From NCBI GenBank assembly GCA_037379345.1, contig CM074515.1, positions 22,072,001 through 22,136,000 on the forward strand: 64,000 nt of DNA, read 5' to 3'. This document shows positions 1 through 27,000 of the stretch, piece after piece (within the stretch, counting starts at the first letter, position 1; every line of letters begins with the position of its first letter). This DNA comes from Perna viridis (taxonomy: Eukaryota). Made by a program: the position numbers.

Positions 1-3000
1 TGATGCTGGCTCATATGATGCTTCCTGAAAGTATAAAAGGATAACTTAATCAAACTAAAAGATAAACAGTACTCATAATGTTATGAGAATAATGCCTTCA
101 TGATGTAGTTAATACCAGGATGTGTATCACTTATACCAAATAATGGCAGTTTTGAAGTTCAGACAGAAAATACCAGAGTGAGTCTGAAACAGCAAATTGT
201 GATATTCTGACGAGACATTCAAAACTTAATATTATGTTTATTTATGAAATCACTATTGGTTAGAAGTAACATCATCATTTAAAATCACAGAAAAGATCAT
301 GCAGATAGAACAATGGTAAAATAATTAATTTCCCTCTAAATGAAAATATTCAATGATTTCATGAGTATGCCTGTAAAATCCCTACAATGCAGGGTTTAGA
401 TAGCTTTTTGTCTTAATCATGTTGGTCTTTTGAGTTAATAACCATATTTTAATGAAAGTCTTACAATATCAAAAACAACAGGTGTAGCCTCAGCACAGTC
501 CTGTTTCCCACTGACAGCTGCAGAAGGACGAAGAGCTTCAAGTCGCTTAGACATTCGTAACCTAGCCTGTCTTTCCGCCTCTCTCTGTTCTCTAAGCTTT
601 CTAAAATTGAAAACAAAACATTCTTATTGGTAAGTCTAACCTAAACATAGATTTGAGATTTTTAAAGATTCAGGTTTTTTTTTATTCAATTTTTTCAACT
701 GAAATACACAAATGTAGAATATCTACTGATTTACTCCTAAGGCTTAAACTTAACTATCCAGCCAATAAGGTGAAACCTGCCTAAACTAACCCTAAATAAA
801 CTGAAAACCTGTCTCAAGCAGACACTTTTTGGAGACCCTCCTTATCAGATGAAATGTACTTTGAACCTAGGGAAACCAAACCTTAATTAGTTAAGTTTTA
901 CAGTCCAAAAGTGATTTTGGTAGAGACAGGTTTCATTGTATATACCTAGCCTCCTCCTGTTTCGTTTGTTTTTCTTTTTCCTCCTGTTCAGCCCTCAGTC
1001 TTGCCTGTTGTTCTTCCTCTGATATTTCTACAACATCTTCTCTGGTCGGTGGTAGACTTTGTCTTGATCTGCTGTCTATTACATGGTCTAAATTTATAAC
1101 TCTTGGTGGTTTCTTCACTGGTCTGCAATCAGTATATCATTATACAATCATTTAATGGCTTCAGCTTTAATTATTGGCACCGTGGAATACCAATGTATTC
1201 AAATCTACACTGAAATAAAGAGGCACAATTGCCCCTTTTTCTTTTGAATAGAACCTCTGCTCTTCAGAAGAAGAAATTTATTAGTCACAACTGTTCTTTT
1301 ATCTAAAATCTGTATGTTAATGGTTCTACTATAATAAAATTGCTTACTTCAAAAAAGAAATAGTCAAATCAAAAAAAGTATTCATACCAATTTCAACAAG
1401 CATATATAAAGTGTACCCTTATTGTTTGTATAAGTGTGCAGCAGTGCCTTTTTGTTACAAAATTAAGACCCTTATTTTCCAGCTTGATCACTGTATTTTA
1501 CATGTAGTGCTGTACTTGATGAATTGTTAAGTTAGTCTTTAAAGACAATAAACTCTCCCTAAGAAAGTTCTTGTATCAACAATTTCATTTTTGTCTACTG
1601 AGATTTTATAAGATTGACAGACATAAGCCTGTTATATAAAAAGGAGGGTTTCACTCAATACCAAACAAGAACATTTTAATGGTATAAAAGTTCTTCTATT
1701 TGTTGCCATAAACTCTCTTAACCCTTGTCATGCTACACCCGGACCTGTTCGGAATTGGACCTGGTACTGCATTATTGGTTCTGGCAGTGTTAATCTTAGT
1801 TTAGGAAAGTGCAACTTGTGTCCATCTGCAAGCAGCGTGACTGTGCTTTAAAATGAGCCACCTGATATAGAGTTTGTTAAAAAAATAATGACTTGAAAGC
1901 TAAAAAAAGAGGTCGTGAGTTTCTGCTGTAGAAAAAAATGAAATTTTTTGGGGGTAGGGTTCATTTCTCAGACCCTCACCAGAGCAGAATTAATCTGTAG
2001 TACTCTACTTCGCCTGGAAACTAAATAAGAATGATTTCTGTCCCCACCATTTCAATGTCAACCCCTCATATTGACTACTTCTGGTTTTAGGCCAAACAGA
2101 GGCCAAAAATTGGAAAAAATCCTTGTTTTTTCACAAGAGTGACCATTCAGGGGACTCATGACCCCCTACTCCTGACTGTAACACACTTTATTTGGCTTCA
2201 GTAGCCTTCACAGTGTACAGGCTGTAGGATGCATGTTCTCTGGTTCCTGATTTGCTCCCACTGAACCCCACATGTAGCAAAAAATGACCACAAATGGTAA
2301 AAAATAACCATTTTCGAGTGAGAGACCCATTCTTCCATGTTGGCCAACCACCCATCCCTCCCTCCCTCCCTCCCACCAGCTCCTCACCCCATCCACCTCA
2401 CCTTGTGATCACCCATCTTTAATTTATATATATAAGAATCGGCATCAGTACCACTGCGTAACTAAATCTCATTTTTAATTTGCACAAGTTTGCAAAATAT
2501 CGAAATCTAGACTTTCGTTCAGGAATGCTCAACATGACAAGGGTTAATATAAATGTACATTTTCAAAATGGTGGGCTTACCCATGAGGTTTTGGTTTATC
2601 AGGAAGTGCAGCAGCATTGACGCCTTTGGACTTTAAAGACTCTTTCATTTTCTGTCTCTGTTTCTGCCAGGAATCATCATCATCTTCTGAATCACTGGAA
2701 TCTCTGTAAATTAAAATCAAAAAGTCTTGCTTTGCAGTATAAAAAATACCCCGAGTCTTTTAATTTTAGATAAAAATACCTATAAATCTCTGTGTTTTAG
2801 ACAAAACAAGTTTAAGTACACAAAGGCAGGGTTTGACACTAACAGTAGTCCTGTGGTCCTGTGCCACCCTAATTTGAGAGAAGACTACCTTGAAATTTTA
2901 ATCGGTAGTCCTTTGGGCTACCTATACCTATTCCTAAATTCTTACTCCATATACATGTAAAGACAGGGCCGCAAGATTATTTTGAGGACTACCTAACTTA

Positions 3001-24000: not shown

Positions 24001-27000
24001 CAATTACACAAGGTTGTATACTATTTGTTTCCAGAAGAATACTTTTTTTATTTGTACAAGCTCATTAGAAATATTTTTTTCAATTGTAACATACCAGTAC
24101 TGAACTTATTACAATTAACTAAAATCAGTGTCATTGACTTGATTCATCAACCTCATTGGAATTAAATTTTCTGTTTTTCTCAGCATTTTACCATAAAATC
24201 TCTCACCAGATTTAATGTTGTTGGATCTTCAATAAATAAGTCCATTCTTAATTTCAGAATAAAATTTCCTCTAGCTGTCTGTCTAGATCAATAAAAGTTC
24301 TATATTTTTGTCATTCAAAAGATTTTGAGGCCAAAAAAATGTAGATTGAGATTGACAAAGTGTGTAAGTTGGACTTATGCTAATGTTTACCTTTGTTGAT
24401 CTGTAGGCTTATGAACAAGTGGAGACGGTAAAAGCCCAGGTGTTACAGGAACAGCAGATCAGAAGTGTTACAGAAGCTTGTCTAACAGAAGAAAGAGCAG
24501 TCTGGCATCATGTACAAAGATTGATTGTTGATACTAGGAAGAAATGTGAAGAAATGAAAGAATCTCTACGCAAACTAAAGTCAGTAAAAACTTATAACTG
24601 TCAATTTAGAAAACATTTTATGCATTTTCAATTTCTATGATTGACATTATGTTGGGTTTTTTTTAAACTACTGGTGTCACATCATTTTTTGTGCAATCTA
24701 TGAAAATTTTATCCTGAATAACAGTGAAATAATCCTATTGCAAGTTTTTATTATCACATTCGAATTCTAAATCATTTTGTATGAAAAAAAAAGTTAGGTA
24801 AAAGAATATTTGTGTTGTCTATCTTGGAGTATTTTACCTGAATATGATAGATGTTATTTAAGATTGGAAGCAAAAAGAAAATTTGGATGACCTAAAAATT
24901 TTTTTTTTTATATTTTAATTCATCCTTTGTTTGCATAAAAAGTTACGAATGATTCATTGTTTATTTTCCTAGAAAACAAACAACAAAATAAGTCATTGAC
25001 ATCCTGCAATCAATGGAAAACATATGCAATGACCACATTTTTAAACTCGTTGTTTTAAAGTTAAAATATTTTCAGTGTAAATCTTCATATTTTTCAGACA
25101 TGTACAAAGTGATATCAAATGCAAACTATTGCCTGATAATAAAGACAATAAAACTTTAAAACAGAGTGACGATAACACTGATACAGTTGCAATACATGAT
25201 AATACATGTGGTGAAATCAAAAGGTCATCCACCAATGACAGGGCATATGCTGAGTTGTTGGTAAAGAAAACAGACCAATATACAAGAGAACTACAAAAAT
25301 GTATATCTTCTGTTATCATAACAACAGATAAACTTCTTGGTAGATCTAGTTCTTCACAGAATAGAGAAACTGTGTTTACATAATGTTATTGTTTGTTTCC
25401 CACAGGGTAGTAGACATGGTGTTTATAGATCCATTATAATTATACCCTCTGTTTTTAAAAGTAGGGGTATATAGTGATTGGGGTGCTGGTCGTACAACCA
25501 TTACACAGAGAGGTACCCTTCTCTTATCTGTTACTTCTCCTACAGCACTAAATGGAATTCGATGAAACTTTCACAGAATGTAAATTAATTATTGAAGATG
25601 TGCACTATCTATTTAATCTAAATCAATCTGGAGGTCAAAGGTTACATGTTATTAAATGAATTAGCTTCACATTTTTCTAGTTCATTTTATTGTTTAAACC
25701 AAGTTTTATTTTACAAAATATCCAAGATATCATAATATCCATATAATTGCAATTGAAGTGAGTAAAGTGTTTCTGTGGAAGTTTATTGTATCTTGAAACA
25801 CAACTAAGAAATATTGTAATGGTTTATTATCATCCACGCCCCATCCAGATACATGTATAATGCAAATGTTACTAGTCAAATATCAATCAAATCAAATTTA
25901 TAGTAGCTTTTTTAGAAACAAAATTATGTACTTAGACAAATCATACTTCAGTTTCAACTGGCAAATTTTATGGAGGAATGAGGACTAAAACATTTTGTAT
26001 CATGTTACAACGAAAGACATATTATCACATATTTTAGAGTGAAATGGATGTTTTGCTCCTATGATAATGTCGTGGTAATCAGGCTGATAATTGGTTATTG
26101 GCCTGTCTTTGATGGCAATGTCATTGATATTAGGCTGTCAAAAATGGTAACATAATTGGTAAAGAAAACTAAGTTCTGATTATAAATCAGTCCGTTTGTT
26201 TTATTAATGATAAAAAAACTCTTAAATATGAATTGAAATTGTAATAATCTATTTGTTATAACAAGTTGTTTCAGATATTTTAAGGGGGACATTTTCCTTA
26301 CAACATGGGTATAGTTATCAGGTTTTAGATGGAGAAGATTTTTTTTAGCATTTACATTTGGTTATAGCACAAGGGATTATTAGTGTAACAAGAAATTTAT
26401 TTTTATGTTGTTTTTGATATTTAGATTTTACCATAGCAGTAATGCTTACAGTTTTAATGAAGCATGTCTTTACTGTTAGTTTTCTATTTTTTTCTTGTAA
26501 TTGGTTTTATGCATAAAATACATTTGTACCTCTTATAAGAATGCAATGGTTATATGGTAGCCATACAGCCCATACCAGTTAATCTTTTGGTCAGTTCATG
26601 TGGGAGATTCTCCCCATTGACACTGTCTTTTGTGGGAGATTTTTTCATAATTGAAAATTTTAGGTGTATTTATACAAATACATGCATTTAGTATTTTTAC
26701 AGAAAATATAGTAATTTTAAGAAAACCCCACACAAATCTTACATTATAATACAGGAAATTCTCATTTTTTCATCAATTTCTGGGAGTATCCCCACCCCCC
26801 TTAATGTGGGAGGATTTACAAGTATGTGGAGCTCTCTAGTAAAAACCTGAATCTCTACAATGCTTTTATCAAACTCACATATATGAAGACTTATTACATC
26901 TACATTACTGTATAAATATTTATGTTTATATTTATTGTTCAAGACTGATTTTATTTATGTTCATTTATTGTGTAGTCCTGTGTACTGGGTAGGTCTAGTG

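What the first reader, a model, noticed from the sequence alone, without database searches (positions are those of the whole stretch)
1..25383. Head-to-head ANKS3 / DNAAF8(C16orf71) pair apparently conserved between a mollusc and human
Seen: two divergently transcribed genes with ATG exons ~6.8 kb apart. Recalled knowledge: human ANKS3 and C16orf71/DNAAF8 are adjacent and divergent on 16p13.3, and both are cilia-linked (ANKS3 in the ANKS6/BICC1/NPHP module; DNAAF8/Daap1 in dynein assembly particles). Inference: a bilaterian-age microsynteny maintained by a shared ciliary bidirectional promoter. It also independently supports the orthology of a poorly conserved, low-complexity protein that is probably annotated as uncharacterized.
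Basis: partly seen in the sequence, partly recalled or inferred. Interest (0 to 1): 0.7.

Follow-up and report, generated by a model that had tools for sequence, protein, structure and literature searches.

The report
Mussel ANKS3 and DNAAF8 head-to-head
In a mussel genome two cilia-related genes, ANKS3 and the first third of a long form of DNAAF8, sit back to back as they reportedly do in mammals; this is a new example of a known kind of ancient gene neighbourhood, and a shared promoter is not shown.

Summary
The head-to-head pair is real. A complete ANKS3 orthologue (12 coding segments, 16156-25383, +) faces a DNAAF8/DAAP1-like gene (9 coding segments, 9314-465, -). The start codons are 6,842 bp apart.

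The last segment ends at a GTAAGA splice donor. Mytilus orthologues are 1,608-1,686 aa, and their conserved core and NDK domains would lie beyond position 1.

No window exon, nor the full-length Mytilus proteins, hits Pfam DAAP1 (PF15773). The link to DNAAF8 is still well supported:
- NCBI names 10 of 25 relatives "DNAAF8-like".
- 2 of 25 spiralian and 19 of 34 more distant relatives pass PF15773.
- A profile built only from PF15773-positive N-termini picks three exons of this gene as its top three hits among 2,001 window ORFs.
- Profile-profile comparison finds four collinear conserved islands (E 9e-21 to 1e-6; reversed control 0.22).

Mammalian adjacency rests on a cattle gene list; the human arrangement and its orientation are recalled, not tested. 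A shared promoter is unproven. The only positive hint is one CpG-retaining patch (11.6-13.8 kb) between CpG-depleted flanks.

I rate it a new member of a known kind (conserved 5'-5' microsyntenic pairs), of moderate interest.

The parts
9165..9314 (-). DNAAF8-like coding segment 1 (ATG 9314-9312; conserved island I begins here)
   Evidence: tblastn of P0002 residues 6-50 at 78% identity. Sequence read: an acceptor-like site lies just upstream of the ATG and a GT donor at 9164-9163. ORF 9120-9320 is the third-best hit of the PF15773-positive N-terminal profile (E 0.048).
7877..8572 (-). DNAAF8-like coding segment 2 (large, mostly low-conservation, disordered-looking)
   Evidence: P0002 residues 50-262, 63% identity, E 3e-77. 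As a query it found the two Mytilus full-length proteins. No Pfam family above cutoff.
7246..7368 (-). DNAAF8-like coding segment 3 (part of island II)
   Evidence: P0002 residues 255-295, 76% identity; hhalign island II.
4581..4745 (-). DNAAF8-like coding segment 4 (end of island II)
   Evidence: P0002 residues 296-350, 80% identity; hhalign island II.
3945..4031 (-). DNAAF8-like coding segment 5
   Evidence: P0002 residues 352-380, 86% identity. Not matched by M. edulis P0001.
3539..3676 (-). DNAAF8-like coding segment 6 (island III, motif TVFIDLRNF at about 3637-3602)
   Evidence: P0002 residues 385-428, 70% identity. Second-best hit of the PF15773-positive profile (E 9.3e-4 over 2,001 ORFs). 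hhalign E 1.2e-6.
2580..2702 (-). DNAAF8-like coding segment 7 (approximate 5' limit; acidic/serine run then WQKQRQK motif)
   Evidence: P0002 residues 441-470 align to 2669-2580, 83% identity. The ORF 2577-2759 and the A1 consensus suggest the segment starts further up.
945..1121 (-). DNAAF8-like coding segment 8
   Evidence: P0002 residues 471-528, 61% identity.
465..600 (-). DNAAF8-like coding segment 9 (island IV), last one inside the window; gene continues beyond position 1
   Evidence: P0002 residues 528-573, 89% identity. Best hit of the PF15773-positive profile (E 1.3e-9). hhalign E 8.9e-21. GTAAGA donor at 464-459.
9315..16155 (.). Interval between the two start codons (6,841 bp)
   Evidence: No Pfam family in the 4 ORFs tested; no Rfam family; no tRNA.
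11601..13800 (.). CpG-retaining patch in the middle of the interval: candidate shared promoter region (inferred)
   Evidence: CpG o/e is 0.69 (core 11601-13000: 0.79), against 0.12 and 0.28 in the flanks and 0.22 and 0.20 in the two gene bodies. Poisson P 3e-10 against the flank rate. Three CCAAT copies at 13020, 13052 and 13084 lie in a 16-bp tandem repeat.
15049..15838 (.). About 326-bp tandem repeat, 2-3 copies, each with the imperfect palindrome GTTGCCTTTAGCAAA
   Evidence: The motif fails the strict X-box consensus (recalled). The three copies are repeat units, not independent sites.
16156..16341 (+). ANKS3 coding segment 1 (ATG 16156-16158)
   Evidence: P0038 residues 1-62, 87% identity. 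An acceptor-like site lies just upstream of the ATG.
16937..17158 (+). ANKS3 coding segment 2 (ankyrin repeats)
   Evidence: P0038 residues 58-131, 86% identity by tblastn. Pfam Ank_2 3.9e-15. Best-identity database hits are all named ANKS3.
17884..18027 (+). ANKS3 coding segment 3 (ankyrin repeat)
   Evidence: P0038 residues 119-166, 90% identity; Pfam Ank 2e-10.
18500..18580 (+). ANKS3 coding segment 4
   Evidence: P0038 residues 167-193, 93% identity.
19139..19309 (+). ANKS3 coding segment 5
   Evidence: P0038 residues 183-239, 61% identity.
19600..19764 (+). ANKS3 coding segment 6
   Evidence: P0038 residues 237-291, 82% identity.
20483..20611 (+). ANKS3 coding segment 7
   Evidence: P0038 residues 293-335, 93% identity.
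21662..22225 (+). ANKS3 coding segment 8 (serine-rich linker)
   Evidence: P0038 residues 342-529, 69% identity. No Pfam family.
22512..22676 (+). ANKS3 coding segment 9 (SAM domain)
   Evidence: P0038 residues 525-579. Pfam SAM_1 1.6e-7. Best PDB matches are the ANKS3 SAM domains 4nj8 and 4nl9_A (E 2e-14 and 1e-13), ahead of ANKS6 and BICC1.
23866..24087 (+). ANKS3 coding segment 10 (3' limit approximate)
   Evidence: P0038 residues 579-652, 64% identity.
24407..24589 (+). ANKS3 coding segment 11
   Evidence: P0038 residues 628-688, 93% identity.
25096..25383 (+). ANKS3 coding segment 12, with the stop codon at 25381-25383
   Evidence: P0038 residues 685-782, 56% identity; the ORF ends at 25383.

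Best explanation
The window comes from a mussel related to, but distinct from, Mytilus edulis and M. galloprovincialis. It carries the complete orthologue of ANKS3 (ankyrin repeats, a SAM domain and a C-terminal helical part).

Facing ANKS3 head to head is the 5' third of the orthologue of DNAAF8/DAAP1 in its long form. That form has a disordered DAAP1-type N-terminus, then a conserved core, then NDK domains. Only the N-terminus is in the window.

The same two genes are neighbours in a mammal. The arrangement is therefore most simply an inherited, bilaterian-age 5'-5' microsyntenic pair.

Inferred, not shown: both genes start transcription in the one CpG-retaining patch in the middle of the 6.8-kb interval (about 11.6-13.8 kb). 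Each would run through a non-coding first exon and a first intron of about 2 kb to its ATG exon. A break between the genes would then separate at least one of them from a shared promoter or regulatory region.
For: ANKS3:
- Pfam finds Ank families in 2 of 10 plus-strand ORFs and SAM in 1 of 10.
- The ankyrin exon is 94% identical to M. edulis 'ANKS3-like', 81% to amphioxus ANKS3 and 77% to gar ANKS3. No listed hit above 60% identity bears another gene's name; some bear no gene name.
- All 782 residues of P0038 map collinearly onto 12 segments. Gar, amphioxus and Lingula ANKS3 are collinear too.
- The SAM exon's best PDB hits are ANKS3.

DNAAF8:
- Exon 2 finds only 2 proteins, both Mytilus, one named DNAAF8-like.
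- 10 of 25 spiralian relatives are named DNAAF8-like.
- 2 of 25 pass Pfam DAAP1 and 24 of 25 carry NDK.
- A full-library search with a mollusc relative finds a small family of 122 proteins.
- Of 34 of its 38 members of 733 aa or more, 19 pass DAAP1 and 32 carry NDK.
- An HMM built from 9 DAAP1-positive N-termini ranks three exons of this gene first, second and third among 2,001 window ORFs, in collinear order.
- hhalign finds four collinear islands with E 6.7e-12, 2.9e-10, 1.2e-6 and 8.9e-21; the reversed control gives 0.22.
- Lee et al. 2020 describe DUF4701 plus NDK as the non-mammalian vertebrate Daap1 architecture (passages read).

Linkage:
- A cattle interval lists '...NUDT16L1, ANKS3, DNAAF8, ZNF500...'.
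- In 3 of the 4 species present in both hit lists (three scallops), the two proteins' contigs have the same length. The smallest is 528,310 bp.

Promoter patch:
- CpG o/e is 0.69-0.79 in the centre, against 0.12 and 0.28 in the flanks and 0.20-0.22 in the gene bodies.
- Acceptor-like sites lie just upstream of both ATGs.
Against: - Pfam DAAP1 hits none of the 9 window ORFs at E<=1. It hits neither full-length Mytilus protein, nor the nemertean or annelid relative.
- The NDK half that completes the architecture is outside the window, so it is inferred from orthologues.
- The taxa of the PF15773-positive proteins are unnamed in the library. Only Atlas cluster names ('C16orf71 homolog', 'Dynein axonemal assembly factor 8') link one of them, P0164, to vertebrate-style naming.
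- The start codons are 6.8 kb apart. A bidirectional promoter is usually taken as under 1 kb between TSSs (Irimia et al. 2012, passages read).
- No strict X-box occurs in the whole window (0 hits).
- CpG retention is indirect evidence for a promoter, and no transcript data are at hand.
- DNAAF8 protein is restricted to tissues with motile cilia. ANKS3 works with primary-cilium and Bicc1 complexes (abstracts only). Tight co-expression is therefore not a given.
- In M. edulis the two proteins' contig lengths differ. The records may come from different assemblies, so this is uninformative.
- The human arrangement and orientation are recalled only.
Confidence: 0.6

Rival explanations
1. The neighbourhood is inherited but neutral. 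Slowly rearranging genomes (bivalves, vertebrates) have simply not yet separated the two genes. Each gene has its own promoter, and nothing functional ties them together.
For: The ATGs are 6.8 kb apart. No shared ciliary motif was found: 0 strict X-boxes. The reported expression breadth of the two vertebrate genes differs. The interval holds repeat arrays.
Against: Conserved metazoan pairs are enriched for the 5'-5' orientation and for co-expression (Irimia et al. 2012, passages read). Only one CpG-retaining patch lies between two CpG-depleted flanks. Linkage is also seen in three scallops.
Confidence: 0.3
2. The minus-strand gene is not a DNAAF8 orthologue. It is an NDK-family (NME8/9-like) gene with an unrelated disordered N-terminus, so the apparent synteny with mammals is a naming artefact.
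For: The curated Pfam DAAP1 model misses the window exons and the Mytilus proteins. Two relatives are named 'nucleoside diphosphate kinase'. Lee et al. 2020 called DUF4701 vertebrate-specific.
Against: There are four collinear N-terminal islands shared with PF15773-positive proteins, and the reversed control is clean. 19 of 34 long relatives pass PF15773. The query P0022, which lacks a canonical NDK domain, recovers only 122 proteins in 1.84 billion, so there is no flood of NME proteins. The gene has the same neighbour, ANKS3, as DNAAF8 has in cattle.
Confidence: 0.07
3. The Mytilus 1,600-1,700-aa models are fusions of two genes. The window's gene would then be a short, stand-alone DAAP1-like gene ending near position 435.
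For: A stop follows 9 codons after the last aligned residue if the donor is read through. Mammalian DNAAF8 is short (520 aa, table read in PMC12633730).
Against: The segment ends at a canonical GTAAGA donor. All 25 relatives continue without a break into a strongly conserved stretch (invariant columns from residue 576 on). 24 of 25 carry NDK. The long form is independently described in non-mammalian vertebrates.
Confidence: 0.03

Closest known systems
DNAAF8 / C16orf71 / Daap1 (Pfam PF15773 DAAP1, formerly DUF4701), long non-mammalian form with a C-terminal NDK domain (Lee et al. 2020, PMC7785291)
   Same: A disordered N-terminus with four collinear conserved islands shared with PF15773-positive proteins. 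Orthologues carry a C-terminal NDK region. ANKS3 is the neighbour, as in cattle.
   Different: The curated Pfam model does not reach the mussel sequence. The N-terminus is highly diverged. Only the N-terminal third is in the window. The family was described as vertebrate-specific, whereas relatives here come from molluscs, a nemertean and an annelid. Function in dynein assembly was not tested.
ANKS3 (ankyrin repeat and SAM domain-containing protein 3), partner of ANKS6, BICC1 and NEK kinases
   Same: Same domain order: ankyrin repeats, linker, SAM domain, C-terminal helical part. Collinear with gar, amphioxus and Lingula ANKS3. The SAM exon is closest to the solved ANKS3 SAM domains.
   Different: Longer serine-rich linker (782 aa in Mytilus against about 600-650 aa in fishes). 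SAM-SAM binding partners were not examined.
Conserved ancestral microsyntenic pairs (CAMPs) in 5'-5' orientation (Irimia et al. 2012, PMC3514665)
   Same: Two unrelated genes, head to head, apparently neighbours in distant phyla.
   Different: This pair is not named in that paper's main text (0 occurrences of ANKS3 or C16orf71). Its supplementary list could not be seen. The interval between ATGs (6.8 kb) is longer than the under-1-kb signature of a classical bidirectional promoter.
NME8/NME9 (thioredoxin plus NDK-domain axonemal proteins)
   Same: NDK domains, and a link to outer dynein arms in the literature.
   Different: The mussel family has a DAAP1-type N-terminus and a family-specific core. 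Pfam found no thioredoxin domain in the 25 relatives. The NDK part is outside the window.

Membership tests
DNAAF8/DAAP1 (Pfam PF15773) | Match to the curated Pfam DAAP1 profile above its cutoff (27 bits) | tested here: not met
   0 of 9 window ORFs at E<=1; 0 of 2 Mytilus full-length orthologues. Met by 2 of 25 spiralian relatives (Haliotis, 33.2 and 28.0 bits) and by 19 of 34 more distant long relatives.
DNAAF8/DAAP1 (Pfam PF15773) | Detectable homology of the N-terminal region to PF15773-positive proteins | tested here: met
   An HMM of 9 PF15773-positive N-termini ranks three of this gene's exons first to third among 2,001 ORFs, with E 1.3e-9, 9.3e-4 and 0.048. hhalign finds 4 collinear islands with probabilities 99.3, 97.5, 96.8 and 90.9%; the reversed control gives 0.3%.
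DNAAF8/DAAP1 (long form) | C-terminal extension with an NDK domain, as in non-mammalian vertebrates | tested here: inconclusive
   That part of the gene lies outside the window. It is present in both Mytilus orthologues and in 24 of 25 relatives.
DNAAF8/DAAP1 | Binds outer dynein arm subunits, localises to DynAPs, and is needed for outer-arm deployment | not testable with these tools
   Known only for Xenopus and human (Lee et al. 2020, passages read).
ANKS3 | N-terminal ankyrin repeats followed by a single SAM domain | tested here: met
   Pfam Ank families in ORFs 16751-17164 and 17875-18027; SAM_1 and SAM_2 in ORF 22500-22676.
ANKS3 | Closest relatives are ANKS3, not ANKS6 or other ANK-SAM proteins, with collinear full-length similarity | tested here: met
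   94% identity to M. edulis ANKS3-like and 68-81% to chordate ANKS3. 782 of 782 residues are collinear. By PDB ranking the ANKS3 SAM comes before ANKS6 and BICC1, but by a small margin: 56 and 54 bits against 49 and 47.5.
ANKS3 | SAM-mediated binding to ANKS6/BICC1 | not tested
   No complex prediction was run; the report makes no binding claim.
Conserved ancestral microsyntenic pair (5'-5') | The two orthologues are direct neighbours in at least two distant phyla | tested here: inconclusive
   Mollusc: shown in the window. Mammal: consecutive in a cattle gene list. Human: recalled only. Three scallops share a contig for both genes, but adjacency is not visible. No eukaryotic genome collection was on hand.
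Conserved ancestral microsyntenic pair (5'-5') | Divergent orientation conserved | not testable with these tools
   Orientation is known here only for the window.
Bidirectional promoter | The two TSSs lie within about 1 kb, on opposite strands | not testable with these tools
   No transcript data. The ATGs are 6,842 bp apart. Both ATG exons have acceptor-like sites upstream. A single CpG-retaining patch of 1.4-2.2 kb lies in the centre.

The most novel reading that the evidence does not exclude
ANKS3-DNAAF8 is a bilaterian-age 5'-5' regulatory unit driven from one unmethylated promoter island. It would couple a regulator of primary-cilium and Bicc1 mRNP function to an outer-dynein-arm assembly factor. 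The ancestral DNAAF8 would be a long protein with a DAAP1 N-terminus and several NDK domains. Four short N-terminal islands would be its conserved dynein- or DynAP-binding motifs, and mammals would have lost the NDK half.
Probability: 0.3. Interest if true: 0.55.

Novelty: new member of a known kind. Interest (0 to 1): 0.35.

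Why it matters
- **Age of DNAAF8.** If the pair is truly ancient, it gives independent positional support for DNAAF8 orthology outside vertebrates. This concerns a protein whose N-terminal domain was described as vertebrate-specific and is almost entirely disordered.
- **Candidate functional motifs.** The comparison narrows the conserved content of that region to four short islands. These are natural candidates for the motifs that retain the protein in dynein assembly particles.
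- **A testable gene pair.** It adds one more 5'-5' pair to the list of deeply conserved gene neighbourhoods, here with a candidate shared promoter patch that can be tested.
- **Limits.** None of this changes a paradigm. Both genes are already named by NCBI in related molluscs.

Tried and rejected
- **Pfam on the 9 minus-strand ORFs:** no DAAP1; only three sub-threshold chance matches (TMEM51, Ufd2P_core, mS41 SAM).
- **Protein Atlas with exon 2:** no usable hit.
- **PDB search with exon 9:** 0 matches at E<=1.
- **Strict X-box consensus (recalled pattern):** 0 hits in 64 kb. A relaxed pattern gave 4 hits. Three are copies of one tandem repeat and the fourth lies inside the minus-strand gene, so this is not evidence of RFX control.
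- **CCAAT density:** ordinary across the interval. The three clustered copies are units of a 16-bp tandem repeat.
- **hhalign option for alternative alignments:** gave nothing useful. I cut the alignments into consecutive pieces instead.
The taxa of the PF15773-positive proteins stay unknown.
- **Paper searches:** ANKS3 with C16orf71, 0 papers. ANKS3 with DNAAF8, 1 paper, a cattle GWAS table. ANKS3 with microsynteny, 0 papers.
- **Joined spliced protein:** none was built or searched. Exons were searched one by one, and full-length database orthologues stood in for the whole protein.
- **Not available:** The supplementary tables of Irimia et al. 2012, which may list or omit this pair, could not be seen.

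Full report
**What is in the window**

The window is AT-rich (GC 0.33), has no N, and is clearly molluscan, not human. Stop-to-stop ORFs show two sets of exon-like ORFs on opposite strands in the first 25.4 kb. I searched each ORF on its own.

**The plus-strand gene is ANKS3**

- Pfam finds ankyrin-repeat families in 2 of 10 plus-strand ORFs and a SAM domain in 1 of 10.
- The ankyrin ORF 16751-17164 was searched against longer proteins. It gave 547 proteins at E<=1e-3 among 662 candidates, of which 120 are listed.
- Multi-repeat ankyrin proteins top that list by score, at 33-53% identity. Among the listed hits above 60% identity none bears another gene's name: the named ones are ANKS3 and the rest are unnamed, 'hypothetical' or generic 'SAM domain-containing' records. 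Examples: M. edulis 94%, scallops 81-84%, amphioxus 81%, Lingula 82%, gar 77%, teleosts 67-80%.
- All 782 residues of M. edulis ANKS3-like (P0038) map collinearly onto 12 segments, from the ATG at 16156 to residue 782 at 25380. The stop follows at 25381-25383. Gar, amphioxus and Lingula ANKS3 are collinear too.
- The SAM exon's best solved-structure matches are the ANKS3 SAM domains 4nj8 and 4nl9_A, narrowly ahead of ANKS6 and BICC1.

**The minus-strand gene is the 5' third of a long DNAAF8-like gene**

- The largest exon (7874-8575) finds only two longer proteins. One is M. edulis 'unnamed protein product' (1,608 aa). The other is M. galloprovincialis 'dynein axonemal assembly factor 8-like isoform X2' (1,686 aa).
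- Residues 6-573 of the M. galloprovincialis protein map onto nine segments from 9296 down to 465, at 61-89% identity.
- The ninth segment ends at a GTAAGA donor. Nothing in the window matches residues 574-1686.
- In all 25 relatives the protein continues straight into a strongly conserved stretch. 24 of 25 carry NDK domains.

The gene runs off the left edge of the window.

**Is it really DNAAF8?**

Evidence against:
- The curated Pfam model DAAP1 (PF15773, the former DUF4701) hits none of the 9 window ORFs at E<=1.
- It hits neither Mytilus protein, nor the nemertean or annelid relative.

Evidence for:
- NCBI names 10 of the 25 relatives DNAAF8-like.
- Two Haliotis relatives pass the Pfam cutoff in their N-terminal region.
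- A full-library search with a mollusc relative that lacks a canonical NDK domain (P0022) finds a small family of 122 proteins.
- I aligned 34 of its 38 members of 733 aa or more. I left out P0146 and P0148 to stay under a size limit, and P0005 and P0012 because they were already in the first alignment.
- Of those 34, 19 pass PF15773 and 32 carry NDK.
- I scanned 12 of the 34 individually, and 9 were PF15773-positive.
- An HMM built only from the N-termini of those nine was run against all 2,001 six-frame ORFs of the window. Its three best hits are exons 9, 6 and 1 of this gene, in collinear order, with E 1.3e-9, 9.3e-4 and 0.048. The next hit is an unrelated ORF at E 0.29.
- Profile-profile comparison of the spiralian N-termini with the PF15773-positive N-termini gives four collinear islands. 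Probabilities are 97.5, 96.8, 90.9 and 99.3%, with E 6.7e-12, 2.9e-10, 1.2e-6 and 8.9e-21. A column-reversed control gives 0.3% and E 0.22.
- One PF15773-positive protein (P0164) sits next to Atlas clusters named 'C16orf71 homolog' and 'Dynein axonemal assembly factor 8'.

Lee et al. 2020 (passages read) report that non-mammalian vertebrate Daap1 is DUF4701 plus a C-terminal NDK extension, and that mammals keep only DUF4701. They also report that the N-terminal domain suffices for retention in dynein assembly particles. They called DUF4701 vertebrate-specific. The data here say that the same architecture, and a diverged version of the same N-terminus, exist in molluscs, a nemertean and an annelid.

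**The arrangement**

The ATGs are at 9314 (minus strand) and 16156 (plus strand), 6,842 bp apart. The interval shows no other gene. The 4 ORFs tested gave 0 Pfam families, and there were no Rfam matches and no tRNAs.

Both ATG exons are preceded by acceptor-like sites, so non-coding first exons may lie further in.

CpG observed/expected values by region:

| Region | CpG o/e |
|---|---|
| DNAAF8-like gene body (1-9314) | 0.22 |
| Left flank (9315-11600) | 0.12 |
| Centre (11601-13800) | 0.69 |
| Centre core (11601-13000) | 0.79 |
| Right flank (13801-16155) | 0.28 |
| ANKS3 gene body (16156-25383) | 0.20 |

The centre differs from the flank rate with Poisson P 3e-10. From general knowledge (recalled), invertebrate gene bodies that are methylated in the germline lose CpG while promoters keep it. 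On that basis I infer that both transcription units reach into this one patch. This is a hint, not a demonstration.

No strict X-box occurs anywhere in the window. A near-palindrome that occurs three times upstream of ANKS3 belongs to a 326-bp tandem repeat.

**Conservation elsewhere**

- No eukaryotic genome collection was available, so I could not survey synteny.
- A cattle GWAS table lists 'MGRN1, NUDT16L1, ANKS3, DNAAF8, ZNF500, SEPTIN12' for one chromosome-25 interval (passage read). This supports adjacency in a mammal.
- Four species appear in both protein hit lists. In three of them (Pecten maximus, Ylistrum balloti, Mizuhopecten yessoensis) both proteins have the same longest-contig length. 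The smallest is 528,310 bp.
- In the fourth species (M. edulis) the contig lengths differ, probably because the records come from different assemblies.
- The window shows no further shared neighbours. Downstream of ANKS3 lie mollusc-type TRP-like channel genes and a LINE.

**Comparison with what is known**

Deeply conserved gene pairs, enriched for the 5'-5' orientation and for co-expression, were catalogued by Irimia et al. 2012 (passages read). No paper in the library holds ANKS3 with C16orf71 or with microsynteny.

ANKS3's links to cilia, ANKS6 and Bicc1 come from abstracts only. The DNAAF8 naming comes from Braschi et al. 2022 (passages read).

**Verdict**

The gene identities hold. The conserved neighbourhood is plausible and supported in part. 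The shared promoter is an open inference with one indirect supporting signal. I rate this a new member of a known kind, of moderate interest.

Noticed in passing
window 33857-37477 (+) and 47480-51016 (+): Two long intronless ORFs (1,206 and 1,178 aa) with many ankyrin repeats plus an ion-transport domain; they look like TRP-type channels. They are 51% identical paralogues 10 kb apart. Both have high CpG o/e (0.83 and 0.89), unlike ANKS3 and DNAAF8.
   Followed up: partly
window 40137-44062 (+): A LINE-type retroelement between the two channel genes. It has endonuclease (Exo_endo_phos_2) and reverse transcriptase (RVT_1) domains, split over several ORFs in different frames, so it is probably decayed.
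   Followed up: partly
window 15049-15838: A 326-bp tandem repeat (2-3 copies) 0.3-1.1 kb upstream of the ANKS3 ATG. Each copy carries GTTGCCTTTAGCAAA, an imperfect palindrome resembling an RFX X-box but failing the strict consensus.
   Followed up: partly
window 13020-13092: A 16-bp tandem repeat (4.6 copies, unit CCAATGCTTTTCTAGG) places three CCAAT motifs within 70 bp, inside the CpG-retaining patch between the two genes.
   Followed up: partly
window 58504-59023: Overlapping ORFs on both strands with a repetitive, tyrosine/valine-rich translation, suggesting a minisatellite-like repeat rather than a gene.
   Followed up: no
Relatives P0001-P0025, residues about 576-1300 (outside the window): Between the DAAP1-type N-terminus and the canonical NDK domain lies a strongly conserved core of about 700 aa without any Pfam family. 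Pfam reports 2-3 NDK stretches per protein, and parts of the core consensus look NDK-like to the eye. The long DNAAF8 may be a multi-NDK protein.
   Followed up: no
P0201 (relative): One PF15773-positive, NDK-bearing relative also matches the phage T4 gp5 C-terminal trimerisation repeat (E 9e-25) at residues 633-703. This is probably a repetitive insert or an assembly oddity.
   Followed up: no
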